Shown piece after piece: positions 16,143-59,904 of a DNA stretch of 64,000 nt. The stretch is from NCBI GenBank assembly GCA_000091205.1, contig AP006501.2. One strand, given 5' to 3'. The stretch is from Cyanidioschyzon merolae. Lineage: Eukaryota. A program made the position numbers and the translations under genes. The notes below the pieces were generated by a model that ran no database searches, had not been told where the DNA came from, and was given only the letters and a program-made list of their open reading frames with translations. Position 1 is the first letter of the stretch; every line of letters begins with the position of its first letter.

Positions 16143-18252
16143 CGTCCGAGCTAGGCACAACTTGACGCGCACGGTACGGAACAGTGATTGCGTTCCAGGC
16201 TGCAATCAGATGAGGCTGCTCGTTTAGCCACACCTGGCGAAGAATTGGGTTGAGGTTGCTCTGCGGGATCTTTTAACGCTACTTTCAATCCGTGGGCTTC
16301 CTGTATCACGAAACATTACCGACCATCCGCGAAGCGCTGGTCGGCATCGTGTGTGCGAACGATGCGCGACACGCGTATGAGACGAAAATGGAACACTGAA
16401 TAGCTCGCTCTGTTCCTGCCTTTCAATTTTTTGGCTTTCTTAGATGTGCAGCAATAGGTGCTTATGGATGCATATCTAGTTTAAGGATGCTCGCTGCTCT
16501 ATTCGTAGTGGCGCCGTCCACTCGGTGGCGCTGGAATTCGTTACGTCACCGGAATCAAGATGATTCGCAACGCCTTTGAATGAGGGTTCGTAAAAGTACC
16601 GATATCTTTATACAATGCATACATATGAGACTCCGATACTCAACTTAACTCTCGAGTAGTGTGCTCAGATCGCGCATTCTGCGAGTTTTCGATCTATCTG
16701 TTTCAAGCAACTCGCGGGCGGGGGATTTCGTGCTGCTAGACGGAAGGGGAAATGTGCTCGAGGTTGTCCCTAGACAACATGTTGAAAAACTCCTTCTTAA
16801 GGTTCACTGAACTTGTCACATCAGAAAATCGATTTCATTCGAAAGAGAAAATGTCCTCCGGTCATAGGCCATGAGCGAGACGGCGTTCCATAGCAGCACT
16901 ACGTATATAACAGAATACGCTCGGAGAAGCCCACGGGTCTTCTGTTCTGTACGATAGGGGATGGTGGACTCGGACTTTAGCCACCACAACGATCGCTTGG
17001 AATGGAATGTGCGAAACTGCTATGCACGAGGGCGGCCTAGACGCATCCAAATTAGTCGTCTTGTTCTCTAGCCTGGATATTCCACCGGGTGCTTGTTTCA
17101 TCGAGAACAGCATCACTTGCTACAAATCCCTTATCAAATGGAACAGATTGCGCTTCATCATAGGGTACTAGACTGAATGCGGAAACCAAGCAGAGCATTC
17201 GCGGGTGCCTGCGGTGGTCTTCAAAGGCATCTGGCGAGCAATGAGGGACACGTTTCCGCGGCACGTTCGAGTTCTCGGAGGAGGACGAGGAGGAGGAGGA
17301 CGATGAGGAGGGCATGCGACGAAAACGCGGGAATATATGACAACACCCAGGTGTCATAGCTCTGAAGCGCGTCCCCGAGTTGTCCACAAAGGAGTTTGTA
17401 GATCGCAGCTTCCGCCTATGCATGACATGCGTTGACAACAGCCGGAAGCGACTTTATCGAGAATTTCACACTGTCATCAGCATCTTGCGACGGATGACTA
17501 CAGAGCTGGGGGTAAACGAGCGAGGGTCGTACTGAAAACCGGAAATGAGCGTGAGGAGATGAAGCCAGTGCGGGGAAAAAATCGCAAATGCTGATGCTGG
17601 TATCAGTGAGAAGAGACCCAGACTTTTACATACGCGCCCGTTTCAACAAAGCGGACCTTTTCATCTCTATACTGACACAGGTTTAGATCCGCGCATATGA
17701 GGCCGCGGAGCAGGTTGCTGACTTTGTTGCTGACTCGTCCACGCTACGGCTTGTGGAGGCAGCATAAACGATCCGCTCTGCGAAACGATCCGCGACGCCA
17801 CCTGTGCGTCTCAGGCACCAAGTAGCAGGTTCACAACACGGTGCCGAGCCCGTGGGGCATCTGCGGCTTGCCACTCGGCCAATGTATGACGCCAACTGTA
17901 CGTTCAACGAGTGATGCCAAACGTATCCGACATCGGATGTCTGCGCACCGGTAGTTCTCTTTGATAGGGCAGCGCAACACGGGTCGCACCAGCGAGCGGA
18001 CGTTCATCCGGTGTACATATGCAAGTGCGCGAATGTGGAGGTTGCAGTTAGAGGCACGTTCATTTCACAAGCCACGGAGCTATGCGCACAGATGGTGTAA
18101 TTCTCCTGGTACAAAAGATACGGACCGGAACTGTCCGTAACATATCCTTCAGATGCATGCAATTACACGACAAACGAAGCGCCGTCATCCGTCGTGATTC
18201 ATCTTCATTCATGCACAAGGTCTTCGCGCTCTTTTCGCGCTTTCGTAGGCGC

Positions 18253-27007: not shown

Positions 27008-27880
27008 ATGGAGCTTGCATCACCAACGTACTTGCCGGAAGAAGACACCAGGAATGAGGATGATGACCTTGATGGTGACGAAGGAACAACCCTTGAACGG
27101 GGCGTCGATTTACCGGCACCGCCACTTCCTCGTGCGACGTACTGGCTTCGTGGCTCTTGGCGATCGGTGCTGGGAGATGCGCCCTTCGGGGACGCGTGGC
27201 TTGCTGAGTGGAGTGCCTGGGCCGCAGCTCCCACAGCAGCGACACCGGCTCCACCGGGAACTTCAGCAGCACTGCCAGCGCAACCGCCCTCGACAGAGGA
27301 AAAGCCGCCTGCCGCTGGAGCATCGGCGTCGGCATTGGCAGCAGCAGCAGCAGCAGCAGTGGACGCTACCAGCCCGGAACGACTGGTCCAAGAGGCACGT
27401 TCGCTGTTGCGAGCGTGGTTTCAAGAGTATCGACACGGCCTTGAGCTTTTAGAAGAGACGCGTACTCCATCACCGGACGCTCGCCAGGCGCTGCACCAGA
27501 CATGGACTTTATGCGACGGCATGCTTCGGGCTCTCGTGCAGCGCTTGAACGCGCTTCGTGCCTGGCAGGCAGCGCTCCAGCTCGTATACCTGTCCATGGA
27601 TCAAGTCGAGGCTATGCGTCACCAAGTGGAAAAGATTCGATACGAGCGTGCGCAAAGAGCTGCATCCACATGCGCCGGGGACCAGCAAGTCTCCATAGCA
27701 GCCGCCGCTGACGAAGCACAGACAACGTGCGCAAACGTCTGCCAGCAGCAAGCCGTGCTCCATGAGCAAGCACCAGTGGCGAAAAACGCGGCAACAGAGG
27801 CGTTGCTCGCAACCGCCGAGTTGCGAATGATCGAGAAGCTGCAAGAGATTGCTCGTCAGTTTCCAGATGTAACCGAATGA
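27008..27880 (+). CDS. hypothetical Ala-rich / coiled-coil protein (290 aa)
   Basis: The ORF 26927-27880 starts at GTG, with the first ATG at 27008. It has an acidic N-terminus, a poly-Ala tract and a helical C-terminal half, and no recognised family. Its 3' end overlaps the 3' end of the convergent condensin gene by 25 nt. Confidence 0.3.
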   Translation: MELASPTYLPEEDTRNEDDDLDGDEGTTLERGVDLPAPPLPRATYWLRGSWRSVLGDAPFGDAWLAEWSAWAAAPTAATPAPPGTSAALPAQPPSTEEKPPAAGASASALAAAAAAAVDATSPERLVQEARSLLRAWFQEYRHGLELLEETRTPSPDARQALHQTWTLCDGMLRALVQRLNALRAWQAALQLVYLSMDQVEAMRHQVEKIRYERAQRAASTCAGDQQVSIAAAADEAQTTCANVCQQQAVLHEQAPVAKNAATEALLATAELRMIEKLQEIARQFPDVTE

Positions 27881-30849
27881 CCAGAATAGGGCGAGCAAGA
27901 GCCAGCACGCGGTATGGATGCAGTTTCGTTTGAGGCGACATTCCCCGCACAGACACTAGATGCGGAACAGTCGTGAGGGGTATCGTCCAGCGATTCACTG
28001 CATCCAGCGGTTGCCAAGAGCTCCCGAATTCGGTTCTCAAAGCGGTCCAAGAGTCGCCTGAGCAGAGCGCTCACCGGCTCTGTCATGGCACTCTGCACGA
28101 GACGTTCCACGGTCGCCACGGTCTGTAACGAATCAGTGTCGGATAGGACCTGTGGTAGCACCAGATGCTGCAGCAGCCGAGCACAAGCGATGGCAAACTC
28201 GGAACGAGGCTCCACGAGGATCTCGTTCAGCATTGCGATTGCTAGTCGGAGGTGGACGTTTCCGTCACCAGCAACGGTGGCTGTTTGACCCTGCGCTCCA
28301 GCGTGGATGCGTTGTTCGGATTCAGTGCTCAGCGCCCGATACGGATCGAGCAGAAACAGCAGGTACTGGCCAGCCTGCACTGGCGAAACAGTGGCCAGCG
28401 GATTGTCTTTGGGACTTTTCACGAGCACGCGCAAAGTCGGTAGGAACGCGTGCTCGAAGGCGTAGCGATGCTCTGGGTCACCTGTGAGGCAGATAGCTGG
28501 GAAGAAGACTGCTAGACACTGTCTTAGAGCGACGTTATCCGCTGTGGATGGTGTGAAGAACAAAAGGAGGAGCCGCTTGATGAGCTCCGCATCGGGCGCG
28601 AGACGCCGCAAAAAGATAAGCTTTGCAAAGCCCTCGACCACCGTTCCCTGGAGGGCGTCTGTATCCGCTGCAGTGAGCAGGCTGCACAGCCTATCCAGGA
28701 GCACTTGGCGGGGACTCGTCGTCGTCGTCGTCTCGAGGACGGCAGTGCTGGATTCTCCTGAGATTTCGGAGCAGTCTGGTGCTGTGCCCTCTTCGGAAGC
28801 GTGGGTGCACAGCCAATCGAAGAGCGCTCGCAAGGCAGCCAGACGCACCGCCTCGACGTCATGTTCAGCGACGTGGAGCAGGAGCAGCGAATGCTGCATC
28901 GACAGCTGACCGCTTCGGTCTATGAGCCCCGCCAGACCGAGGACGCGCATAGCGGTTAAGCGTTGGGAACTGTCCTCACTCGTGACATGGTGCAAGGTGC
29001 AAACCGACAGAAGCGTTACCAGCAGGGGCATGAACGTCTGCACAATGGCATTCAAGTCCCTGGACAAGACGCTGCGGGCGTTTGCGGCCTGGGAATGGCG
29101 AAGCAGGTGTCGTTGCTCGAGGCCGCTCTGATACCGGAGCAGTGCCTGTAGAAGCGCTTCAGAGAGCGCCAAGCAGGAGTGTTTTCCGGTGACATCGGGG
29201 TCCTCGTCGGCCTCGGCGGTGCTATGCAGCCCCGCTACAAGTTCTGTCACCAGACGAGTCGTTTCCTGAACGTTTGCTTGCGCACGAAACAGAACTTCGA
29301 GCGCCAACTGGAGCTCCTCTGGACCGAGTCTTGGCGAGCGAATCAGGGCTTCCATCGTTCGTAAGAGCAAGCGGCGCCCTGCTTCATCGCTCATGTCCAG
29401 GGTCCGAAGCACCTTCAACAGCATTCGCACGACGAAGGCGTACGACCGAGGCTCCGCAGCATCGCGCGCTGTTTCAGAAGCACGGCAGACACTCGTTGAG
29501 CAGGGCGAATGCGCAGCGTGCATCCCCAAAGGACTAGTGTCGACAACCTCCGTACGGGCATGTTGGTGGTAGTAGTCCAGTGCTGCGCAGAGATCGGTGA
29601 TGCACGGCAACAAGCTGGCTGCCAACTGGGGCCAGAGGGAGCGCTCCAGGTTGCGTGCTTTCCAGGCAGTGATCTGTGCACAGACGTAGGCGACTGCTGC
29701 TCGTTCTGCGTTCAACTCATTCAGATCTATCTGCGACACGGATTGCTCGATCTGTTCTTCAGTACTTTGGCAACTAGACTGCACTTCGGCTGCGAAACGA
29801 CGAACCAGTCGGAAACAGTCGGCATCCGGACAACTGACAAGCATCTGAACAAGCGCTGGTAAAACCGGCGTCTCGTGTACCTCGACATCGAGGAGCTGCA
29901 GCAGGTCGGTTAAGCGGCCTTTGCAGACGCATTCCAGCCATGATTTCCGCAGCATCTCTTCGAGACACGCTTTCTTCACTTCCATGCTGCGATCGGAGAG
30001 GCCACAGCGGAGCAGTTCCACCCGCTGCGCAATGCTCAACATCTTTGGGTTGACACGCTGCGCGAAAATCTTCTGGTATACCAAGAGCCGGATACTAGCG
30101 TCTACATCCCTGGCCCGCGATACGACTGCGTCTACCAGCGATGGATGCAATGCGGTCGCGAGCTGGAGAAGCGCTGCTTTGCGTACCGAAGCGCTCGGGT
30201 CACGACTGACGAGCCGTTCGAACACACCAAGCAACTCTTCATCCAATGTTTGTACCTGACGGAGGTGCAGGGTGTGCAACGCAATCAAAGCCTGGGCTCG
30301 CACGACGGGGACACGGTCACGTGTACGCTCGAGCAGCGCCCGCGAGACCTTGGTCATGCTGGCGCGGTCGTGGGAAAGCCACTCGCCCACGTGCTGTACG
30401 ATAGAGATAATGGCTTGGCAGCTTCTATATCGCACTGCCTTATCTTGAGCTGCAAGTAAACGAGTGAAGAACGTGAGCATTTCTTTAACAAAGTCCACGC
30501 CGCCCGGGATATTCTCCTTGTCTCGGGGTTCATCCGTTGGACGTTCCTTCGACGTTTGAAGAGCTAGCGTTCCGATCAAGTCGAAAATCCGCTCAACCCT
30601 GGTATCCTTGTTGTAGACGACCAGGCACCGCTTCAAGAGCTCAAACAATACACATAAACTGCCTGTTGCGTCCACGTCCCAGACCGCCTTCAAAGCCTGG
30701 GAGCTGTCTCGTGTACTGCTATCACTGAGGGTCACCGTCTCCAGAACCTGGATGATGCGCTCCCTCAAGGCCTCATTAGCAGCACGCTCCGTAGGCGCCG
30801 ATGTCGAGCGCGCAGCGGTTGCCGCAACCCGCGAGCTTAGGCGAGCCAT
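27856..30849 (-). CDS. condensin complex subunit 3 (CAP-G / Cnd3 / Ycg1), HEAT-repeat protein, 997 aa
   Basis: ATG verified at 30847-30849. It aligns with NCAPG across the conserved HEAT blocks (AVRYRSCQAIISIV...; SIAQRVELLRCGLSDRSMEVKKACLEEMLRKSWLE against human SIAQRVMLLQQGLNDRSDAVKQAMQKHLLQGWLR; VEGFAKLIFLRRL...LRQCLAVFFPAIC...FEHAFLPTL). Confidence 0.88.
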   Translation of the reverse strand: MARLSSRVAATAARSTSAPTERAANEALRERIIQVLETVTLSDSSTRDSSQALKAVWDVDATGSLCVLFELLKRCLVVYNKDTRVERIFDLIGTLALQTSKERPTDEPRDKENIPGGVDFVKEMLTFFTRLLAAQDKAVRYRSCQAIISIVQHVGEWLSHDRASMTKVSRALLERTRDRVPVVRAQALIALHTLHLRQVQTLDEELLGVFERLVSRDPSASVRKAALLQLATALHPSLVDAVVSRARDVDASIRLLVYQKIFAQRVNPKMLSIAQRVELLRCGLSDRSMEVKKACLEEMLRKSWLECVCKGRLTDLLQLLDVEVHETPVLPALVQMLVSCPDADCFRLVRRFAAEVQSSCQSTEEQIEQSVSQIDLNELNAERAAVAYVCAQITAWKARNLERSLWPQLAASLLPCITDLCAALDYYHQHARTEVVDTSPLGMHAAHSPCSTSVCRASETARDAAEPRSYAFVVRMLLKVLRTLDMSDEAGRRLLLRTMEALIRSPRLGPEELQLALEVLFRAQANVQETTRLVTELVAGLHSTAEADEDPDVTGKHSCLALSEALLQALLRYQSGLEQRHLLRHSQAANARSVLSRDLNAIVQTFMPLLVTLLSVCTLHHVTSEDSSQRLTAMRVLGLAGLIDRSGQLSMQHSLLLLHVAEHDVEAVRLAALRALFDWLCTHASEEGTAPDCSEISGESSTAVLETTTTTSPRQVLLDRLCSLLTAADTDALQGTVVEGFAKLIFLRRLAPDAELIKRLLLLFFTPSTADNVALRQCLAVFFPAICLTGDPEHRYAFEHAFLPTLRVLVKSPKDNPLATVSPVQAGQYLLFLLDPYRALSTESEQRIHAGAQGQTATVAGDGNVHLRLAIAMLNEILVEPRSEFAIACARLLQHLVLPQVLSDTDSLQTVATVERLVQSAMTEPVSALLRRLLDRFENRIRELLATAGCSESLDDTPHDCSASSVCAGNVASNETASIPRAGSCSPYSGHSVTSGN

Positions 30850-33375: not shown

Positions 33376-34459
33376 GTTCTTGATTATTGGTATATTTCGT
33401 GAATATGAGTCAGCGTGTGTCCTATGTAGCGATGAGAGAAGCGAGCGCACACCCAGATCAGCGTACCGATTTGGTCAGTGGAGGGATAAGCCGCGCTTTG
33501 GCCTGTTGGTCAACGACACCAGCACCGTTACGTACGGATGCAGATCTATGATAGCGCAGGCTCCCTAGTTCCGGTCACCGTTCACGAACGGACCCCAGCA
33601 GCGGAGTGAGCAGTGCTTCGCTGGGTGGCCCCCCCCCCTCTGCGCACAACAACTCCGCCACCACTGCTACCGCGACTACCAGTTCGACGTTCCGCACGAA
33701 GGAATGATGGCAGGAAGCAGCGTACGCGAGGCAATGGCCTTGCTCGTGGCTACTGGACCGCGCTCAATCAGGAGTCCCAACGGACGCGTGTCCTTTAATT
33801 AACGAAATTTATAGTCTGATCCCATTTCCTGCGATGAACTTGTCGAAAGCCCAAAGTGAGCAGATCTTCCACTTTTTCGACTATAGGTGAGAACACGAGA
33901 ATTCGGTGGCTTTTCTGACGGTCACGAACACCAGCCTCTGTGGGCCCAATGTCTACGGCGGCTTCCCGCTCCTGTCGCTTATCTCGGGGTTTCATGGAGC
34001 AGGTATCTCTTGTTCCTGCAGTATCGTTTTCCGCTGAAGAAGGATGCGGATCGCAACGTTAAAATCCTTAGTTCGCTGCTTCAAAATGTCGTTCATGCAT
34101 TTGATACAGTGACGAAAGTTGTGATCCATGCTTCGCTTGCAATGCTCGTGTTCTATATAGAAAGCCACCTTGCGCCCTTCGGAGCGTAACTCTTCACTGT
34201 GGTCAGAACTTCCCACAAGTGTGCACCAGAACGCGTGCTCCGCTTCCTCCCCAACCTCGGAGGACTTCTCTGTGGCGCCTGGACGCCTGCTTCTTCACTG
34301 GGCAAGTGCTCTTAACGGGTACAGAGGGCTCCCCTCGATGCCCTCATCGGCTCCCGCCCCAATTACCGTACCGTTCGATCAGAGGCTCCGCCTTACTGGC
34401 GCTCTGGGCGAGTACGCTGTTCGCTGCACGCACAATAGCTCGCTGCTAAATTCGACAGA

Positions 34460-34990
34460 GGATCGGTGGAATACAGTGATGTCCTTGATGAAACATGTTC
34501 CTTAAGAAAAAAATCGAGGCTGGAGAACAAATCGAGAATTTTCGATCCGATTACGCTCCCGTTGTACACAGCGGTGACGTAGTCTCCACTGGAAGCGATT
34601 GCGTTGGTGAACACAGACCGAGTTCAAGACCCGCTAACCATCTAAACAGAAGAAGCGCAAGCCTCTGAGAGCATCCCACATGAGATGTATCGAGTGCATG
34701 GGGGTTCCGTTTCGCTGACGGCCATACAACGAAGAACATTGAAATTTCGAGCGGAGCAGAGGATTTAACGTGACCATTTCAGTGAAAGCTCGGTATGAGC
34801 TTGTAAACGAGTCGTCGATGGACGACACCAAGCTCTTCTACGTTTGAATTCATCGGTGCGAATTGCTGCGCCCACGATCCAGCTAGAAGCAGAAGATCTT
34901 AGGCTTGAAGCGTGGGTGATCCTCGCTTGCTAAGCGCGATCAACGGAGAACAGCGGAGGTTTGTATATATTATCTGGATGATTGTATCTT
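34460..34990 (+). repeat. dispersed repeat family 2, copy 2
   Basis: Homologous to 20400-20880 and 45580-46095. It lies in the divergent intergenic region between argJ (-) and the HPR gene (+). Confidence 0.55.
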
Positions 34991-44513: not shown

Positions 44514-45579
44514 TGCAAGTGAATTGGTACTCGAGAGGCAGCGATAAACAAGCGGTTCCACAAAGCGTTACGCCTCAGACACAGGTCGCAAACTCGTCAC
44601 AAACGCAACGTGGCCAGCGACAGCACGACCTATATTGCAAGTATGAGGTTGAAAATAGTAAGTGCGCTCAAGAATGCGTGAATTCGTCCACACCAGAAAG
44701 CTACTACTGAGAGGCAACGCGCTCGTAGTCGTACGGTGCACTGAAGCGCTGAGCGACCAATACCCGGCATCAGCGCATCCCAACGCGCTGCGATTTCGGA
44801 GAGCGCGCGCGTGCCCTGCACCTGCGCGGATCATCCCTTCAGCCGCCTCCTGCAGGGGCGCGTCCACGTATGTGTGCGTGCATGCACGCATGCATGCATG
44901 CGTACACGCTGCGCTTTCAGCGTGATTCGCTCGTAGAGGCCGGGTGCAGCATGGATGCCGGCGGCTAGCCTGCAGATACGCCTCGTTCGGATTGAAATCG
45001 AACGGATCAACTCACCGAACACGTGCGTACACATCAAAGAGTTTGGGTCATCGCATGGTGGTTAATATAAGGTGTGGAAGGATATGTCTGCGACTGATGC
45101 CTTTTCCTCTCTGTTGCCTCGGGCTTTAAATAGGTAGGGCTCGTCTGGCTCTGAAGCTCTGTAGTCAGTAGTTGAAGGGTGTTGATGGCAGCGTGCTTTT
45201 CGATATCGTTGCTTCGAGACGTTGTTGACGTATTTCAGGCACACTTAGAGATTGCGATGCACGCTTCGCGTGCATTTCCATCTTGGTCGAATACAGACGC
45301 AGTGCACCCTCGGTCGCTGTGACGCTTGGATGTCGCGAGGTGTTCCAGTACCTTCGCCACGCACCTGCTTTCTCCGTGCGTGGCCGCGTTGCGCGCGAAC
45401 GCTTGCTTCATCGCTCGGCACATGTCCTTGACGGGCATCTTATGATCCCGTCAGTGCGCTCCTCCGTTTCCGCGCCCGATGCCGTACCCTAAGATCACGG
45501 GCTTCTTTTGGACGATGCTATTGTCCAAGACTCTACCCGCTGCACACACGAGTGCATGCTGTCCCATTCGATGGAGGAT

Positions 45580-46095
45580 TTCTGGAAGCCGATGCTCTCC
45601 ATGATGAACCAAGTACCGGAATGACATTCGATACTGGAGAACGAGTCGAGAAACTTGGATCGTTTCATGCTACCTGCATACGGGGCGCTGTCAGACTCTC
45701 TACTCGATGCGCTCGCTGCGGTGACTAGATTCCCAGTGCAGGACCCTTTACCATGCGAACAGAAGAGACGGCATCGTCTGGGTGTACATTTCCTGAATGA
45801 TGTCAAGCTGCCGTCGAATGCTGTTTCGTGAATGCATACGCAGAGTGAGGAGGATTTGCGTTTTTAACGGAATCGGTTATTTGGCAACATGAATTCAGTG
45901 AGGTTTCAGCACAACCTGGTGAGCAAGTCGTAACGCGACGACGCGCGAGCATCTGTACGCTTCAATCCAGCGGCACGAATCGCTGCACCTACGAGTTGCC
46001 TTGAAACAGAAGATCTTATGCTTGACGCATGCGTGAATATCATATGCTAGACCTAAGCAATGAAAGACAGCGGATGCGTGTACATATAAACTGGA
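45580..46095 (+). repeat. dispersed repeat family 2, copy 3
   Basis: Homologous blocks include gatgaacc.ag, g.acgaatcgctgcacctacga, acagaagatcttatgcttgacgcatgcgtgaata, and an end shared with copy 2 (...cagcgga.g...gt.tatat...ctgg). It lies in the divergent intergenic region between the SGAT (-) and PP2A-B55 (+) genes. Confidence 0.55.
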
Positions 46096-53227: not shown

Positions 53228-56200
53228 CATGGTCCGTTGAGAGGCCAAGAGCCAGACTGAGAATTACAGTTCGAGTATGCCCTTCAAACGTTGACGTGGA
53301 GATTTGTCAAGTTCCGATATATGCCGCTGTGTATTGCACGTGTAGTCCGACGTTGGACGAGCAAAATTCCTCACGGTGATTATCAGATTACACTGAATTT
53401 GCGCGATTCCATAAACAGGTGGTGATGCTGTCAACCAGGGGCGCGACGTTGGCGCTCACAAGTCGTACCCGGAGCGTCTTCGCCCTGGGAGTGCTCAAAA
53501 CGGAGCGAAAGTTCGCGCATAGAGACAGTCTGTGAGCCAGAACTTTTTGAAATGACGGACTGAGGCGGGCCACGCAGTTGCTGCAGGCGACATCAATGCA
53601 GGGCAGCAAGCGCTGAGACTTGCCATCGTGATTCAAGGCCGAACATGGATCCACGGTACTTTTCGGGATCCTCGATCAAGGCCCATTCGAATATATCGTC
53701 GATCCATTATTCGTTATCGGTGGGTATTACCACTTACAGTCCACTGGCTTGTGCTGGGTTTACGCTAGTCGACCTGTCGCCATTGCCTGGTGATAGCGCA
53801 TTCTAAACGGGTGACTGCAGACACAGTGGCCCTTTTGCTGGCACCAACGACGCTGTTTCGGGCATACTGCGAACGTGCACCCATTGACCAGCAGAGCGGG
53901 AACGTTGCATGATCGCATTGTGATCACCGAAAGCAAGTCTGAGTTGCTGCTAATGGCAAACACAGGGGATCTGAAGCGGAATGGTCAGAGAGTCCCCGCG
54001 ACGCCGATACTAATCTCGCACTCGGGGATCCCTGTTTGTAGTCTTTCACAACAATGGTGTTCCACTTTCAGGTCCGTGTCACGAAACGCTTTTTCGCGGT
54101 TAGTAGCAGAAGCGTTCGGGGTGCATTCATTTTGAAGAAATGAAAAATCGGATGGAAAGGTTTGGCCGTGCAAGTCGAGGATCCCAGAGGGCGGACATCG
54201 CCTGGTCGCGGATAAAAGAGGAGAATTCCTCTTCTCGCTGGCCATCAAGCGAAGAAGAGCCAGTGACGAAGAAGCAGTTGGCGGCAGATACGCGAGAAAA
54301 GGTGTTTGTCCGACGCGATGATGACGAGACTATTGTGGCATAGAGTGGACGAGTTCCAGCAATGCTTGCATTGGTGCGTACCACCAATGCCCATGCCTGC
54401 ACGGCGTTCGTGAACTGGTACGTCAACGCCGCCATCAATTATCAGGAGGTGTGCGGTGCTGAAGATGAGACCCGAGCAGCTGACGCGATCCACGTTTATG
54501 GGACAGCCTCTGAGACTCGTACTTTGCTGGGATAAAACCTGAAAACGATAGCAGGTGGCAGGTCAAAAAACTGAACGGACTTGAGTCATCGTGGCGGTCG
54601 CCTCCACTGGAGGGCGGGTCACAGCTTTGCGCGAATGGAGCACAGACGGATCGACGTGTCTCGACTTGATCTCCAGCCGGGATTCTCCGTCCGCTACTTG
54701 TTTCATCGTGGACAATATCGTGTTCCACGAATGCTTCATCAAATGGAAAAACGAGTGCGTACGTGTACAGCAGACAGACTACTCACCAAAAGGATCGTCC
54801 AGAACAAGTCCGTGATCATCGAGTACAGCACTGGGCGCGGAAACCGAGGACTACATTGAGGTGAGCCTTCTGTACCCGTCCATGGCTTGTAATGAGCGAT
54901 GAAGTGAGCGTTCACGCGCCACAGGGCAGCACTCGGAGGAGCATGTATGCGGGACGTGTATGGGACCACCGGACTGGCGTCAGGTGTCATCGTTGCGACA
55001 GCCGCACCGATACCCCGGAGAAGCAAGATGAAAATGGCATGCGAAGCGCAGATCGCAACGTCCTCCTGTGCCTGGAATGCCTCGCGAACAGCCGTAATCG
55101 TCGAAATCCGGACTTGGACGCCGCTTTTAACATCCTTTGACCGCGATCAACGGAACTGGAGCGTGAGATCCGTGCGTTAAAGTCTAGATATAAAGGAGAG
55201 CACAAGACAGTCGTTCCAAAAAAAGCCGCAAAAACCTGATATGTACCAGACTAGATAGAGACCCAAACCAAAGTCTGTTTGCGCGACTTGGGAAACCTGG
55301 TCTATTCTATATTCACATGGATGGAAACGTTCAGGAATATGGATCGGCAGCGAGAACGATCTCGTGGGAACCGCACCTCACGAGACGCAGAGAGCAGTCC
55401 GCTCGAGTCGCGCTGCACGCTCACAACGACGATGCAGATGCTCAGAGCGGACTCGGGTTGACATGACTCGAGCCCTGTACGCCCTCTACGCCTATCTCGC
55501 ACAGAGATGCCCGCAACCTAATCAGGGTCATCCACTCCATCGCGCGAAACGCCCATGAATTTCTCGACCAGATTTGCTTCGATCGCTTCAGTATCGCTGG
55601 CTCGTTCGCGTGCATCACGGAACGTCTTCATTTTCTGCGGGTATGCATCGCACGAGCGGGGACTGCGGTTATCGGGCCGCTCCTACTCTCCATTTTATCG
55701 CAAAGGCGTCCTGTCACCGTGCGTCGAAGGCTGCAGAACGCACAGTGCCGGCTGCAACTGCCTCTGTTGCGCTCGGCAAGCGCCCATTCGCTTCATCCAC
55801 GAAACCCCTGTTCCTAGAGAGCGTTCTGGACTGGGTGTACTGGACCTTCAAGACGTCTTTGGCAAATGCACGATCGCTGCCCTCGTGACCCACATCGTTT
55901 GCGCATTCGGGAGCGTCTGACTCCATGCATTCATTCCGCGAAACGTTAGACCAGGTACCTCAATCGATGCGTATGATACCAGGCGATGGCCAATAACAAC
56001 GTCCTTCTAAGCGATGAGGTCTGCGCAGACACCGCACCACGGCTGGAGCACGTGCATCCTACAAACACATAGACATGCGACCAGGTGCTTTTGCCGCGAA
56101 ACAATCTCGTAACTGCCTTGCAGCGTTCATTCGTTCCTTCGCTGGGTAGCGACGCTCGCTGTAGCTTACAGGGTGCGTTGGGTCTGATTTCGGCAGGTGA

Positions 56201-56428
56201 AGCAGGTTATCTACCAGTTTGGGTTTGTCTGGTTTGGTCTCCACGGGAGGCAAGCCCGGGGCCTGTTCCGCCAAGCGCACCTGGAAGAGGGTCCGTGGTT
56301 GGGCACGGAGGGCGCTCCCGAGGTCACTACGGCACGGTTGTGGATCGCACGACTACATTTGAGCGTTTGCCAGCGGACCCTGCGAAGCCGGTAAACCTCT
56401 CGCCAGAATCAGACCGACAGCTGACTCC

Positions 56429-57514
56429 ATGGGGTCGCTCAGCTCCTGGTTTGCCGCGCCACGCGCACTTCGGTGGACCCGTCTCTGGCTCACGCTGTTG
56501 ATCGTTTTACTCGGGGTGCACCTTCGGACAGATGCGGCACTACCTGTGGCAGAAGTTGCCAGCGGTGACGGCACCTCGGAGAGCGGGAGCTCTGGAACGC
56601 AACCGAACGTGCCTGTACGTGTTCAGCTTCCGTTGGAAGCGAAACGGCAGTCGCTCGAGCGAGAACGCGCTGAACTCCTCAGAGACGCCCAGCTTGGCCG
56701 CCTTAGCCTCCGGGATCCAGCAGTCCAGGAAAAGCTGCGCAAGCTGAACGAGGGCTTGCTCCGATTGCAACCGTTGATACGGAGAAACCCTGCAAATGCG
56801 GAGAGCGAACAACGCCCGAACTCGGGGCCGCCTCCAGACCACGGAACCCAGTCCGGGGAGCATCGACATCGACCACATGAGCTCGGCGAGGAACTCGCCA
56901 TCGAGTGCTTGACACCGGACCTCAGCAGCTGGGAACCGATGCAGTGTCGCAACCAACAAGATCCAGTTGTTATTCGCTTTGGTCTGGATACGGATTTCCA
57001 GTGCAGCTGGCCACTCGAGAGCGATGCTGCATACACACTCTTGCGTGATGCACTAGCCATGCAGCGCGCTATTCACTGCCGTGTGCCGCTGGACAACGAG
57101 CTATCCGCGGGACACTTGCGTTTTTTCGCTCCAGTAACGATCACGCTCTGGGGCATTGCCGAGGGCTCTCATCTCCATGTGAATACTCATGTGAACTTCG
57201 TTTTCCATGCCCACCGGGGATACATTCTAGGTGCAGCAGCGTATTCTGTGCGAGATCATTTTCAGATTGTACAGCCTGGTGGTGTACTACAGCTTCATGG
57301 CAAAGTTCACTGGTTTGACGGCCACGCGTTTGTGCCGTACGTTCACGAACCTTTCCGCCTGCCGCCAGCGGCGGCGCGTCGTCTGACCAGTGCCGTACTG
57401 GCATTGTGGCTTTCAACGCTCGTGCTCAGCGGAGTCGTGTTCACGCTATTCTACAAGAAAGTACTGAAAGTGCGTTTGATTCGTCGACTTGACCCCACGT
57501 TTAAAGCTGAATAG
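56429..57514 (+). CDS. hypothetical membrane protein (N-terminal signal/anchor, C-terminal TM helix), 361 aa
   Basis: ATG verified at 56429. It has an N-terminal hydrophobic segment (LWLTLLIVLLGV) and a C-terminal helix (LALWLSTLVLSGVVFTLF), and no recognised family. The stop is TAG at 57512-57514. Confidence 0.4.
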   Translation: MGSLSSWFAAPRALRWTRLWLTLLIVLLGVHLRTDAALPVAEVASGDGTSESGSSGTQPNVPVRVQLPLEAKRQSLERERAELLRDAQLGRLSLRDPAVQEKLRKLNEGLLRLQPLIRRNPANAESEQRPNSGPPPDHGTQSGEHRHRPHELGEELAIECLTPDLSSWEPMQCRNQQDPVVIRFGLDTDFQCSWPLESDAAYTLLRDALAMQRAIHCRVPLDNELSAGHLRFFAPVTITLWGIAEGSHLHVNTHVNFVFHAHRGYILGAAAYSVRDHFQIVQPGGVLQLHGKVHWFDGHAFVPYVHEPFRLPPAAARRLTSAVLALWLSTLVLSGVVFTLFYKKVLKVRLIRRLDPTFKAE

Positions 57515-57518
57515 GTCT

Positions 57519-58736
57519 ATGCAGAGCGAAGGCACTGTTTACCGGCACCGAGCGCGTTGCACGCTGTTTGTCGGGGTCGCTGCTCCGTTCGGACTATGCA
57601 CCACGAAGAGGCACCTAGGGCTCCTTTCGGCACAACGGCCGAGTCAACGGTATCTGCGTTCAGGCCTGGGTCCTGTGGACAGCTCCATGGGGTCTCGCAG
57701 CAGCGCTCGAGTGTCGGCGGCGCTGGTACACGACACTCGCTGGGGAGTCGGTACGAGCGCTGCGCAGCCGAGGGTATCAGAAACGATCTTGTCACGAGGA
57801 CTGGCGACGATTTTTTCGCTTCTGCTCTGGCAAGACTTGCAGGATACGGCAGCGTATGCGGCAGAGCATACCAGGACGCAAGCACGAGCTCAGTGGGTGA
57901 ACCACCACACCGAGGAAGCGACGCGCTGGGGATCGTTACCCCTGCTTGCGGACTCAACACAGCCCCAGGGTCAAGACGGGAACCTGTCAACCAAACTTCT
58001 CCCTGATGTTGTGGATACCGACGGTCAACCGCGTGTCATTCTTGATCTGGCTCGAGCTCTGAGCTCCTTCGAATATGAGCAGCTGCGCACTCGAATCCAC
58101 CACATCGAGGCTACCACTGGATACCGGGTTCGTATTCTGACACAACGCTTTGAAACGGTTGGGCGAGCGATCAGCAGCTATTTCGGGTTACAGGATCAAC
58201 GGAGTATACTCATTGTGCTCGATGAGCGGAGCGGCAATGTGCTCAATTTTCGCGTTGGTGATCAAGTTACAGCGCGTTTTCCGTCCTCGTTCTGGCTGGA
58301 GTTACAGGGACGGTACGGCAATCAGTTTTACGTACGAGAGCACGGCGAGTACGGTGTGCTGGATGCCTGCATTCGGGCGATGGAGACTTGTCTCCAAGAT
58401 GGGCGTATCTGCCGCTTTGTACCTGGATTCGGACGCGATCAGTGGGCACTAAGTTTTCTCATGTCACTTCTCGGAGGGGCGGTGATCGGGTTTACGGCAC
58501 GCACCCCACAGGACGGGAAAGAGGCGAGTACGCCGAACTGGCGCTGGGTTCTGGTGTTCTCCCCGCTCTGGGCGATATTTCTAGTCTCGTTCGGCACACT
58601 ACCGATTGTGGCACGAGAGGGCTGGTGGAATCGCGACCTCATCGCGAACTGGGCTGGAGCTGTTCTCGTGGCAACCGCGTTTTGGTACGCCATTCCGCGT
58701 GTGTTTCCGAATGGCCCCGGGGATCGTGCTCGCTGA
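57519..58736 (+). CDS. TPM-domain protein (TLP18.3 / Psb32 / MOLO-1 founding family) with C-terminal membrane segments, ~405 aa
   Basis: The listed ORF starts at TTG 57489 and the first ATG is at 57519; a later candidate is ATG 57687. A TPM-like core is present (TTGYRVRILTQRFETVGRAISSYFGLQDQRSILIVLDERSGNVLNFRVGDQV...). The N-terminal extension resembles a transit peptide and the C-terminus has hydrophobic helices. Confidence 0.5.
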   Translation: MQSEGTVYRHRARCTLFVGVAAPFGLCTTKRHLGLLSAQRPSQRYLRSGLGPVDSSMGSRSSARVSAALVHDTRWGVGTSAAQPRVSETILSRGLATIFSLLLWQDLQDTAAYAAEHTRTQARAQWVNHHTEEATRWGSLPLLADSTQPQGQDGNLSTKLLPDVVDTDGQPRVILDLARALSSFEYEQLRTRIHHIEATTGYRVRILTQRFETVGRAISSYFGLQDQRSILIVLDERSGNVLNFRVGDQVTARFPSSFWLELQGRYGNQFYVREHGEYGVLDACIRAMETCLQDGRICRFVPGFGRDQWALSFLMSLLGGAVIGFTARTPQDGKEASTPNWRWVLVFSPLWAIFLVSFGTLPIVAREGWWNRDLIANWAGAVLVATAFWYAIPRVFPNGPGDRAR

Positions 58737-59904
58737 CCTCCTTCGTACCGTGAACGTCTCGCTCGAGTGCGATCACCTGCAAGGTGTATCAGCGGGGTTC
58801 GGGGGGCGTTCTCGATATGCAGTGGTGAAATCGCATACGGCATGGTAGGTCATGCATCGCAGTCTGTATAGGATGGTGTCGAGTGGACGCTGAATTGCTG
58901 CGGTTGGCGTTCACTGTTCTCCAGGTGCTCCAGAAGGTGCACGCCAACACAGCGTTGGGTATTGCGCTGGTGCGTATGCTGCCGGTAAGCGTGCGCTCGT
59001 CGAAAAAGCGGGACTTGTGAAAGGCATCCACGTGGAAAGCGTTCATGTGCATATACGAAAGATGCCGTGAAACAGAATACGTTTGCGCTTCCATGCTATA
59101 TAACGGGTCCATGAGCACAGCGGCATCATCATCATCTGTACAGAGCATGCCGGAGTGTCCGCAGCAGGAGACGTGACACGCTTTCTGGTCCTTGCACGGG
59201 AGCAAGCGCTTGCCATGGAATCATCGTATCTACAGGAGTGCGCTCGAATACGAGTAGCTGTGCGTATGGCTGGCAGCGTACGCCGTTGTACGACCCTCGA
59301 AACACAAATGAAAGCGTCTCCTTCACATACATTTGCACACGATTCTGATTTGAACGTATTTGGCGCACGAGTTTCAGACAGGCTCGGTGACCCTGCGTCT
59401 TGAGCGCGTGTCAACGCTATCGTCTTTCAGGGCGAACGACTGGCATGACGCCAGTAGCGGAGTCGGGTTCAGCGGTCGTCATGGCGCACAGATTCATCCG
59501 GCGGTGCATGAACGCCAGGTACGCACCAGGAAGAGATAGAGCGGATCATTCGTGCAATGGAGCTGAGGCTAGCACCATTTGATGCAGCCAGTGGTTTGCG
59601 AAATGCGATTCTACGCATGCACCGAATGGTATCGGTCGAGGTCTGTTTCAACCGCACGGCATAGAGCAGGTCCAACGATAGTGTCGAGCGCGCGGAGCCT
59701 GCAACGCGATGTCCGGCACCGAGAGGCATGACACAGAGCGTGCCAGGCGCGGTATAAAAACGCAACTGCTGACTTGAGTCTGCTGTTTGGCCTTGCAACA
59801 GATCCATTCGGTGCTCGGTCGCAATCATTCATTTGGCAAGGTTTCCTCTGACCCCAGTCATCGTGACCTTTGCATCGCGCGTGAGTGCTGCGGTCTCTTA
59901 GCGC

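What the first reader, a model, noticed from the sequence alone, without database searches (positions are those of the whole stretch)
57480..57530. Two same-strand protein genes separated by only 4 nt (membrane protein stop TAG 57512-57514; TPM-domain protein ATG 57519)
In a eukaryotic nuclear genome two independent genes almost never abut this closely. The possibilities are that the downstream TPM/TLP18.3-like gene is transcribed from a promoter inside the upstream coding region, or that the pair is co-transcribed as a dicistronic mRNA. A sequencing frameshift could have split one fused gene, but both halves look complete with their own targeting and transmembrane segments. Otherwise the TPM gene really starts at the later ATG 57687.
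Basis: seen in the sequence. Interest (0 to 1): 0.55.

Follow-up and report, generated by a model that had tools for sequence, protein, structure and literature searches.

The report
Two red-alga genes four bases apart

Summary
ORF1 (56429-57514) ends in TAG at 57512-57514. After the spacer GTCT, ATG 57519 opens ORF2 (to 58736).

The window is C. merolae 10D chromosome 19. The public annotation already holds both proteins as read here: CMS435C (361 aa) and BAM82993.1 (405 aa).

A sequencing frameshift is excluded. At least 23 independent metagenome contigs carry the same junction.

ORF1 belongs to an uncharacterised, eukaryote-wide family of type I membrane proteins. ORF2 is a cyanobacterium-derived thylakoid-lumen TPM protein of the Sll1071/LMTP1/TLP26 type, not TLP18.3 proper.

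Two other deep lineages keep TAG, then 1 or 4 nt, then ATG. One of them has no other possible start codon. So 57519, not 57687, is the likely start.

The expression mechanism is unresolved. I favour overlapping transcription units:
- ORF2's mRNA would start inside ORF1's last 150-220 nt.
- ORF1's mRNA would end at its only UAAA signal (57502) or read through ORF2.

Leaky scanning and a TURBS-like element are not supported. Termination-reinitiation on a bicistronic mRNA remains possible. Bicistronic transcripts have already been reported in relatives. Interest is moderate to low.

The parts
56429..57514 (+). ORF1 = CMS435C (BAM82992.1 / XP_005539028.1), 361 aa. It is a type I membrane protein of an uncharacterised eukaryote-wide family: signal-like segment at residues 16-41, membrane anchor at residues 318-346, conserved C-terminus ...DPTFKAE.
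57380..57466 (+). C-terminal membrane segment of ORF1 (residues 318-346)
   Evidence: hydropathy
57298..57518 (+). 221-nt stretch without any ATG at the 3' end of ORF1. An ORF2 mRNA starting here would have 57519 as its first AUG. This is the inferred zone of an internal transcription start.
   Evidence: The control lineage L014 has a similar ATG-free tail, so this fits the model but does not prove it.
57502..57505 (+). The only sense-strand TAAA (UAAA, the C. merolae poly(A) signal) in ORF1, 13 nt from the end of the CDS. It is the candidate poly(A) signal for a monocistronic ORF1 mRNA cleaved at about 57508-57540.
   Evidence: PMC8831791
57512..57514 (+). ORF1 stop codon TAG (TAG in W, L012 and L013; TGA in L014)
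57515..57518 (+). 4-nt spacer GTCT (A in L012, GAAC in L013). It places ORF2 in the +1 frame.
57519..58736 (+). ORF2 = BAM82993.1 / XP_005539029.1 / UniProt M1VM58, 405 aa. It is a membrane-docked thylakoid-lumen TPM-domain protein of the Sll1071/LMTP1/TLP26 type.
57519..57866 (+). Inferred bipartite presequence (residues 1 to about 116): a basic, acid-poor stromal part, then a hydrophobic lumen-transfer segment at residues 89-104 (57783-57830)
   Evidence: inference; no targeting predictor was available
57687..57689 (+). Alternative in-frame ATG (Met57). Its context CTCCATGGGGTC is the same as that of the ORF1 start.
58041..58427 (+). TPM domain core (residues 175-303), including the conserved Cys pair C291/C298
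58443..58694 (+). Three C-terminal hydrophobic segments of ORF2 (residues 309-328, 343-365, 374-392)
59755..59758 (+). Next sense-strand TAAA after 57502, 1019 nt past the ORF2 stop. It is a candidate shared 3' end for ORF2 mRNA and for read-through ORF1-ORF2 RNA.

Best explanation
These are two genuine, separately translated nuclear genes of Cyanidioschyzon merolae 10D (chromosome 19). They abut head to tail. The upstream gene (CMS435C) encodes a host-derived secretory-pathway type I membrane protein. The downstream gene encodes a cyanobacterium-derived thylakoid-lumen TPM protein, whose translation starts at ATG 57519.

The abutment is ancestral to the Cyanidioschyzon/Cyanidiococcus clade. 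A more distant lineage still has a spacer of about 100 nt that holds a poly(A) signal.

Inferred mechanism: the two genes are overlapping transcription units, not a translationally coupled operon.
- The ORF2 mRNA starts from a promoter and transcription start embedded in the last 150-220 nt of the ORF1 coding sequence. That stretch contains no AUG.
- The ORF1 mRNA either ends just past its stop codon, using the UAAA at 57502, or reads through ORF2 to the next UAAA at 59755. The read-through RNA would be bicistronic but would be translated efficiently only for ORF1.

Shown: gene identities, the reality and conservation of the junction, and the start codon. Inferred: the transcript ends and how ORF2 is translated.
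For: - Identity and annotation: exact matches to BAM82992.1 and BAM82993.1 of C. merolae 10D on a contig of 1,282,939 bp.
- The junction is real: at least 23 independent contigs carry it, and there is no SNP between 56873 and 57910.
- Unrelated origins. ORF1 has 186 homologues, including Cyanophora, Ceratiomyxa, Fabomonas and a chytrid, and they end at the same C-terminus. ORF2's closest non-red-algal relatives are cyanobacterial proteins of about 265 aa, and it matches PDB 9H70 (Chlamydomonas LMTP1) at E = 2.6e-24.
- Start at 57519. L012 (Cyanidiococcus) has TAG-A-ATG and L013 has TAG-GAAC-ATG, each with the frame open from that ATG. L013 has no other Met before the TPM domain. ORF1 is only 62-72% identical between these lineages and the presequences only 20-35%. 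Presequence length from the abutting ATG is similar in all three (about 105-115 aa). Starting at Met87 in L012 would leave only a signal-like segment.
- Against translation from a shared mRNA by leaky scanning: ORF1 is 1086 nt and has 12 ATG trinucleotides against 13.9 expected.
- No UGGGA motif, no conserved RNA structure, and the junction folds less stably than shuffled sequence, z = +1.88.
- Poly(A) signals: sense TAAA is depleted in coding sequence (0.5 per kb against 1.5 per kb). ORF1's only copy lies 13 nt from its end. UAAA is the C. merolae signal in more than 90% of cases, 3-35 nt before cleavage (PMC8831791).
- Read-through and overlapping transcription appear widespread in C. merolae: a genome-wide screen of convergent intergenic regions kept only 39 loci with a read-free stretch of more than 10 bp (PMC12874030).
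Against: - No transcript data were available, so no transcription start or 3' end is shown.
- I found no excess synonymous conservation and no GC3 dip at the ORF1 3' end that would mark an embedded promoter.
- The ATG-free tail also occurs in the control lineage L014.
- L012 and L013 have no UAAA between ORF1 and the 3' part of ORF2. There ORF1 transcripts probably are bicistronic. Bicistronic Iso-Seq transcripts are reported for about 10% of Cyanidiococcus genes (PMC9812998).
- The spacer has stayed at 1-4 nt in three deep lineages, while the adjoining presequence accumulated indels. Translational coupling would predict this; independent transcription does not.
Confidence: 0.55

Rival explanations
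1. The pair is a functional bicistronic mRNA with termination-reinitiation. Both genes are transcribed from the ORF1 promoter. Ribosomes that terminate at TAG 57512-57514 reinitiate at AUG 57519, 4 nt away. Selection for this coupling keeps the spacer at 1-4 nt.
For: - Stop-start distances of 4, 1 and 4 nt are conserved in three deep lineages, although the flanking sequence is saturated with change.
- L012 and L013 have no UAAA between the ORFs.
- The junction region is unusually unstructured.
- Bicistronic transcripts are reported in Cyanidium, Cyanidiococcus and Galdieria, with the mechanism undetermined (PMC9812998, Supplementary Note 8).
Against: - Reinitiation efficiency in eukaryotes falls with upstream ORF length (established knowledge; discussed in PMC11291117). 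ORF1 has 361 codons.
- There is no TURBS motif-1 (UGGGA) within 200 nt upstream, no conserved structure, and no extra synonymous constraint at the ORF1 3' end.
- The two proteins are functionally unrelated and go to different compartments (ER/secretory pathway versus plastid). An ORF1 mRNA would be recruited to the ER (inference).
- W carries a UAAA at the very end of ORF1.
Confidence: 0.2
2. In C. merolae itself ORF2 starts at Met57 (ATG 57687). The segment 57519-57686 would then be promoter or 5' UTR, and the abutting ATG an ancestral relic.
For: - The context of ATG 57687 (CTCCATGGGG) is identical to that of the ORF1 start and closer to the weak window consensus (A/x)CC ATG G than that of 57519 (GTCTATGC).
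- The 36 residues between Met57 and the hydrophobic segment could still serve as a short transit peptide.
- Annotators of Cyanidiococcus also chose a downstream Met.
Against: - The abutting ATG and the open frame are conserved in three lineages, and L013 has no alternative Met.
- Met57 of W and Met87 of L012 are not at homologous positions.
- The out-of-frame ATG at 57596 opens a 136-codon ORF across Met57. The transcription start would therefore have to fall within 57597-57686.
- There are 0 SNPs in 57519-57686 against about 2.5 expected at the flanking non-coding rate (weak, p about 0.08).
- Even in this case the promoter would still lie in or abut ORF1.
Confidence: 0.12
3. ORF2 is translated from a bicistronic mRNA by leaky scanning, as in green algae.
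For: The inter-ORF distance is very short. The ORF1 start has no purine at -3.
Against: Eleven internal ATG trinucleotides lie between the ORF1 start and ORF2 (12 in all, 13.9 expected). ORF1 is 1086 nt, against a median of about 290-600 nt for ORF1 of green-algal loci, which are AUG-depleted upstream of ORF2.
Confidence: 0.02
4. The two ORFs form one gene, either split by a sequencing frameshift or joined in vivo by programmed +1 frameshifting at the TAG.
For: ORF2 is in the +1 frame relative to ORF1 in all three abutting lineages, and the stop is always TAG.
Against: - The junction is identical in at least 23 independent assemblies.
- ORF1-family proteins of distant eukaryotes end at the same position with a lysine-containing tail.
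- ORF2 derives from stand-alone cyanobacterial proteins and needs an N-terminal presequence.
- L014 has a spacer of about 100 nt with in-frame stops.
Confidence: 0.02

Closest known systems
Bicistronic/polycistronic nuclear transcripts of Cyanidiophyceae (Cho et al. 2023, Nat Commun, PMC9812998, Supplementary Note 8)
   Same: Same group of organisms. These are co-linear nuclear genes with very short spacers. The orthologous pair in Cyanidiococcus (CCYA06G1907/1908) has no UAAA between the ORFs. The translation mechanism of the downstream ORF is unknown there too.
   Different: That study did not include C. merolae 10D. Its locus list is on Dryad and was not available to me, so whether this pair is on it is unknown. 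Membership is defined by a long read that covers both genes, and I could not test that.
Green-algal polycistronic loci translated by leaky scanning (Gallaher et al. 2021, PMC7896298; PMC11291117)
   Same: Two independent ORFs on one strand of a nuclear genome with a tiny inter-ORF spacer, conserved between species. Some Auxenochlorella loci even overlap stop and start.
   Different: Green-algal ORF1s are short and the sequence upstream of ORF2 is depleted of AUG. Here ORF1 is 1086 nt with the expected number of AUGs.
Viral termination-reinitiation (caliciviruses, influenza B M2/BM2) with a TURBS element
   Same: Stop and start codons lie within a few nucleotides of each other after a long upstream ORF.
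   Different: No UGGGA motif, no conserved structure and no extra synonymous constraint upstream. This is a cellular gene pair, not a viral one.
Overlapping transcription units in compacted eukaryotic genomes (microsporidia, nucleomorphs; from my own knowledge, not checked here)
   Same: Transcription starts and poly(A) sites lie inside neighbouring coding regions. Multigene RNAs arise as by-products.
   Different: C. merolae is not uniformly compact: 3.2 kb of ORF-free DNA lies directly upstream of ORF1. General compaction alone therefore does not explain this junction.
LMTP1/TLP26/Sll1071 (TL15B, PTHR35514) thylakoid-lumen TPM proteins (bioRxiv 10.1101/2024.10.28.620569)
   Same: ORF2 shares the TPM domain (9H70, E = 2.6e-24) and the conserved Cys pair. 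It has C-terminal membrane helices, as Sll1071 and CrTLP26 do.
   Different: The red-algal protein has a presequence of about 115 aa and is encoded 4 nt behind an unrelated gene. No functional data exist for it.

Membership tests
Cyanidiophyceae bicistronic loci (Cho et al. 2023) | A full-length (Iso-Seq) transcript completely covers two or more co-directional gene models | not testable with these tools
   No transcript data were reachable. The Logan contigs L004, L015 and L028 carry SNPs relative to 10D, so I take them to be environmental DNA rather than 10D RNA. The Dryad locus list is not held.
Cyanidiophyceae bicistronic loci (Cho et al. 2023) | No poly(A) signal between the two ORFs (a corollary, not part of their definition) | tested here: inconclusive
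   W has one UAAA 13 nt before the ORF1 stop. L012 and L013 have none before the 3' part of ORF2. L014 has one in its spacer.
Green-algal leaky-scanning polycistrons | Short inter-ORF spacer | tested here: met
   4 nt
Green-algal leaky-scanning polycistrons | Depletion of AUG in the 5' UTR, ORF1 and inter-ORF region upstream of ORF2; short ORF1 | tested here: not met
   12 ATG in 1086 nt against 13.9 expected; the same holds in L012 (14 against 13.6) and L013 (13 against 15.8)
Green-algal leaky-scanning polycistrons | Weak initiation context at ORF1 | tested here: inconclusive
   The ORF1 context is tCC ATG G. It has no -3 purine, but it matches the weak window consensus at -2, -1 and +4, which was derived from only 19 ORFs.
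TURBS-dependent termination-reinitiation | Stop and restart codons overlap or lie within a few nucleotides | tested here: met
   Spacers of 4, 1 and 4 nt
TURBS-dependent termination-reinitiation | Upstream motif 1 (UGGGA) complementary to 18S rRNA helix 26, within about 100 nt | tested here: not met
   No TGGGA in the 200 nt before the stop in W, L012 or L013. Complementarity to the C. merolae 18S rRNA itself was not tested.
TURBS-dependent termination-reinitiation | Conserved secondary structure presenting the motif | tested here: not met
   The RNAalifold consensus is only -8.5 kcal/mol. The single-sequence fold is weaker than shuffles, z = +1.88. With three sequences the power is low.
TPM domain superfamily (PF04536) | Match to the Pfam TPM_phosphatase model above the gathering score | tested here: inconclusive
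   20.4 bits against a cut-off of 22.1, E = 5e-4. Close homologues carry PF04536.
LMTP1/TLP26/Sll1071 (TL15B) subfamily | Sequence homology to a solved member | tested here: met
   PDB 9H70 (CrLMTP1), E = 2.6e-24, residues 129-303
LMTP1/TLP26/Sll1071 (TL15B) subfamily | Conserved cysteine pair after the TPM core | tested here: met
   C291 and C298 are invariant in 12 sequences. The pair is described in bioRxiv 10.1101/2024.10.28.620569.
LMTP1/TLP26/Sll1071 (TL15B) subfamily | C-terminal membrane helices (Sll1071/TLP26 form) | tested here: met
   Three hydrophobic segments at residues 309-392
   phmmer against all PDB chains at E up to 1 returns only 9H70. The solved TLP18.3 structure I recall being in the PDB is not among the hits.

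The most novel reading that the evidence does not exclude
The 1-4 nt stop-start junction is kept by selection because ORF2 is translated by termination-reinitiation after a 361-codon ORF on a cellular bicistronic mRNA, without a recognisable TURBS element. That would be long-ORF translational coupling in a eukaryotic nucleus, conserved across the Cyanidioschyzon/Cyanidiococcus divergence. It could also be the unexplained mechanism behind the bicistronic transcripts reported in Cyanidiophyceae.
Probability: 0.18. Interest if true: 0.75.

Novelty: new member of a known kind. Interest (0 to 1): 0.36.

Why it matters
The translation mechanism behind bicistronic nuclear transcripts in Cyanidiophyceae is explicitly unresolved (Cho et al. 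2023). This pair offers a clean test locus for that question:
- The spacer is minimal and conserved.
- The two proteins are unrelated and easy to tell apart.
- C. merolae can be edited by homologous recombination.

If ORF2 depends on ORF1 translation, this would show long-ORF reinitiation in a cellular eukaryotic mRNA. If it does not, the locus shows that a promoter and a poly(A) signal can sit entirely inside coding sequence in a free-living eukaryote. That matters for annotation: two Cyanidiococcus annotations appear to have truncated the orthologue by 86 codons. It also matters for genome engineering in this organism.

Tried and rejected
- **Transcript evidence from public assemblies.** The short Logan contigs L015 (1544 nt, starting 62 nt before ATG 57519) and L004 looked like possible transcripts. 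They carry SNPs relative to 10D, and a sister run gives a 9-kb contig, so I take them to be environmental DNA.
- **Literature.** There are no hits for CMS435C or CMS436C. The 2007 genome paper says nothing on intergenic distances or overlaps. The locus list of Cho et al. is not held.
- **Embedded cis element at the ORF1 3' end.** Synonymous-site identity there is 0.44-0.54, against 0.45 overall. GC3 of the last 21 codons is not extreme.
- **ATG-free 5' UTR signature.** It is present (156-221 nt) but also occurs in the control lineage.
- **Presequence composition against other reading frames.** It is acid-poor and basic, but the other frames are similar, so the test discriminates only weakly.
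- **Population SNPs by codon position.** There are too few to test coding in 57519-57686.
- **More lineages from metagenomes.** The search found only strain variants.
- **Operon-remnant idea.** Rejected, because ORF1 is a eukaryotic family and not cyanobacterial.
- **ORF1 structure.** pLDDT was 46 with a 5-sequence alignment, so I ran no fold search.
- **Non-coding RNA.** Rfam and tRNA scans around the locus were empty.
Full report
**1. The observation**

The sequence at 57497-57524 reads ACG TTT AAA GCT GAA TAG GTCT ATG CAG. ORF1 runs from 56429 to 57514 (361 aa) and stops at TAG 57512-57514. Four bases later, ATG 57519 opens a frame that stays open to 58736 (405 aa). The next in-frame ATG is at 57687.

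Among non-overlapping ORFs of 150 aa or more in the window, every other same-strand neighbour pair is at least 288 nt apart, and most are 1-3 kb apart (coordinates). The 4-nt spacing is therefore an outlier locally.

**2. Where the window comes from**

Both proteins match Cyanidioschyzon merolae strain 10D exactly:
- ORF1 is CMS435C (BAM82992.1 / XP_005539028.1).
- ORF2 is BAM82993.1 / XP_005539029.1 (UniProt M1VM58).

Both lie on a contig of 1,282,939 bp, which I recall as the size of chromosome 19. The neighbouring genes are eukaryotic: WD40, COX17, a tyrosine phosphatase, TRAP-beta, DPM3 and an RRM protein. The public annotation therefore already has these two models with the 4-nt gap.

**3. 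It is not an artefact**

The same two proteins with the same 4-nt gap are found on at least 23 contigs from many independent hot-spring metagenomes. About 11 strain variants that are 99.5-99.8% identical have SNPs in the flanks. None has a SNP between 56873 and 57910.

**4. What the two genes are**

ORF1 has a signal-like N-terminal segment and one C-terminal membrane anchor. Pfam gives no match. A profile search finds 186 relatives, typically 230-270 aa, with the same architecture and the same C-terminal end. They include Cyanophora, the amoebozoan Ceratiomyxa, the ancyromonad Fabomonas and a chytrid. ORF1 is thus a host-derived, uncharacterised secretory-pathway membrane protein. An AlphaFold model built from a 5-sequence alignment was too poor to use (pLDDT 46).

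ORF2 has a weak Pfam TPM match: 20.4 bits against a cut-off of 22.1. Its nearest relatives outside the Cyanidiales are cyanobacterial TPM proteins of about 265 aa. Its only match among solved structures is 9H70, E = 2.6e-24. That entry is Chlamydomonas LMTP1, a thylakoid-lumen protein of the LMTP1/TLP26/Sll1071 (TL15B) branch that is involved in photosystem II maturation (bioRxiv 10.1101/2024.10.28.620569). ORF2 shares that branch's conserved Cys pair (C291 and C298). It has three C-terminal hydrophobic segments, like Sll1071 and TLP26.

The two genes differ in origin and in destination, so this is not an operon remnant.

**5. Comparative evidence and the start codon**

The gene order WD40, COX17, phosphatase, TRAP-beta, ORF1, ORF2 is conserved in three further lineages:
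- L012: Cyanidiococcus yangmingshanensis, genes CCYA06G1907/1908.
- L013: a contig of 675,726 bp from JGI sample 3300051397.
- L014: a GC-rich, more distant lineage.

ORF1 is 62-72% identical among W, L012 and L013, and about 50% identical to L014. Codon identity at conserved residues is only about 45%, which I read as synonymous sites near saturation.

The junctions are:

| Lineage | Junction |
|---|---|
| W | TAG GTCT ATG |
| L012 | TAG A ATG |
| L013 | TAG GAAC ATG |

In each case the frame is open from that ATG into the TPM domain. The flanking bases and the first 90 codons are almost unrelated between lineages (20-35% identity). The ATG itself has therefore been maintained.

L013 has no other in-frame Met before the TPM domain, so its start must be the abutting ATG. 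In L012 both published annotations start at Met87. That start would leave only a signal-like hydrophobic segment, which by inference is not enough for import into a primary plastid.

From the abutting ATG, all three presequences are about 105-115 aa long. Each is basic and acid-poor and is followed by a hydrophobic lumen-transfer segment. The composition test is weak, because the other reading frames look similar.

L014 has TGA, then a spacer that contains a (CA)n run and a TAAA. Its first in-frame ATG comes 106 nt after the stop.

I conclude that the abutment is ancestral to the Cyanidioschyzon/Cyanidiococcus clade and that 57519 is the start codon (confidence about 0.85).

Met57 cannot be excluded for C. 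merolae itself. Its context CTCCATGGGGTC equals that of the ORF1 start. But an out-of-frame ATG at 57596 would then have to be avoided by the transcription start.

**6. How the pair might be expressed**

*Leaky scanning.* This is the mechanism shown for green-algal polycistrons. It needs a short upstream region depleted of AUG (PMC11291117). Here ORF1 is 1086 nt and has 12 ATG against 13.9 expected. L012 and L013 are similar. I reject leaky scanning.

*Viral-type termination-reinitiation.* The stop-start distance fits. But there is no UGGGA motif within 200 nt. There is no conserved structure: the consensus energy is -8.5 kcal/mol, and the W junction folds less stably than shuffles (z = +1.88). 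Synonymous constraint is not raised at the ORF1 3' end. Reinitiation after 361 codons would be unusual.

*Poly(A) signals.* C. merolae uses UAAA in more than 90% of cases, 3-35 nt before cleavage (PMC8831791).
- In this window sense-strand TAAA is depleted in coding sequence: 0.5 per kb against 1.5 per kb overall.
- None of 19 long ORFs ends in TAA.
- ORF1 has a single TAAA. It lies 13 nt from the end of the CDS, at 57502. The next one on this strand is at 59755, 1019 nt past the ORF2 stop.
- An ORF1 mRNA ending just past its stop is therefore plausible in C. merolae.
- L012 and L013 lack any TAAA until the 3' part of ORF2 or beyond. L014 has one in its spacer. Read-through bicistronic RNA is therefore likely in the relatives. 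This agrees with the 334 polycistronic Iso-Seq transcripts (478 genes) reported for Cyanidiococcus, whose mechanism is undetermined (PMC9812998, Supplementary Note 8).

*An internal transcription start.* The last 221 nt of ORF1 (156 nt in L012, 179 nt in L013) contain no ATG. An mRNA starting there would have the ORF2 AUG as its first AUG. The control L014 shows the same feature, so this only fits the model and does not support it. Read-through and overlapping transcription appear widespread in C. merolae: a genome-wide screen kept only 39 convergent intergenic loci with a read-free stretch of more than 10 bp (PMC12874030).

**7. Verdict on mechanism**

| Explanation | Probability |
|---|---|
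| Overlapping but separate transcription units; any bicistronic read-through RNA serves ORF1 only | about 0.55 |
| True translational coupling by termination-reinitiation; its best argument is the spacer held at 1-4 nt in three deep lineages while the adjacent presequence changed freely | about 0.2 |
| Start at Met57 | about 0.12 |
| Leaky scanning, programmed +1 frameshift fusion, or artefact | a few per cent together |

ORF2 is in the +1 frame and the stop is TAG in all three abutting lineages. A fusion is nevertheless implausible, because ORF1-family proteins end here in distant eukaryotes and ORF2 needs a free N-terminus.

**8. Novelty**

The gene models are already public, and bicistronic transcription in Cyanidiophyceae is published. 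New here are three things: the deep conservation of this particular junction, the argument for the start codon (including a probable 86-codon truncation in two Cyanidiococcus annotations), and the poly(A)-signal pattern. I rate it a new member of a known kind, of moderate to low interest. It would rise sharply if coupling were shown.

Noticed in passing
window 53228-56428: There are 3.2 kb with no ORF of 150 aa or more directly upstream of ORF1, against 1.2-1.3 kb in L012/L013 and 0.3 kb in L014. The genome is therefore not uniformly compact around the 4-nt junction. The region holds a dispersed repeat of about 300 nt (54649-54939). Copies 64-73% identical lie at 45372-45661(-), 34255-34598(-) and 17056-17143(+). 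Rfam and tRNA scans found nothing.
   Followed up: partly
whole window (19 long ORFs): Stop codon usage is TAG 10, TGA 9, TAA 0. Sense-strand TAAA is about 3-fold depleted in coding sequence (0.5 per kb against 1.5 per kb), while antisense TTTA is not. This fits selection against the UAAA poly(A) signal inside genes.
   Followed up: partly
window 27008-27880 (+) and 27856-30849 (-): A 290-aa ORF with no Pfam match and the condensin Cnd3-like gene overlap tail to tail by 25 nt. If the first ORF is a real gene, this is another extreme junction.
   Followed up: no
L012 7079-7336 (Cyanidiococcus yangmingshanensis JANCYV010000006.1): Both public annotations of the ORF2 orthologue (CCYA_CCYA06G1908, 325 aa; F1559_004148, 316 aa) start at Met87. 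Yet the frame is open from an ATG 1 nt after the upstream stop. They probably lack 86 codons of transit peptide.
   Followed up: yes
L019 (JGI24721J26819_10095456) 104-1273: A strain variant of ORF1 carries a 29-aa tandem duplication (NSGPPPDHATQSGEHRHRPHELGEELAIE) in the variable luminal region. The junction is unchanged. It could be a real polymorphism or an assembly artefact.
   Followed up: no
window 57515-57521; L012 7078-7081; L013 7159-7165: ORF2 is in the +1 frame relative to ORF1 in all three abutting lineages (spacers of 4, 1 and 4 nt), and the upstream stop is TAG in all three. This is probably shared ancestry plus one 3-nt indel.
   Followed up: partly
protein P0131 (KAJ3128991.1, Nowakowskiella sp.): A chytrid gene model joins a SARAF domain (store-operated calcium entry regulator, an ER membrane protein) to an ORF1-like domain. 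This is either a merged gene model or a hint at the cellular role of the uncharacterised ORF1 family.
   Followed up: no
window 57557-58006 (+): A 149-aa ORF lies out of frame inside the ORF2 presequence region. Its ATG at 57596 would be the first AUG for any mRNA starting between 57522 and 57595, which bears on the Met57 alternative.
   Followed up: partly
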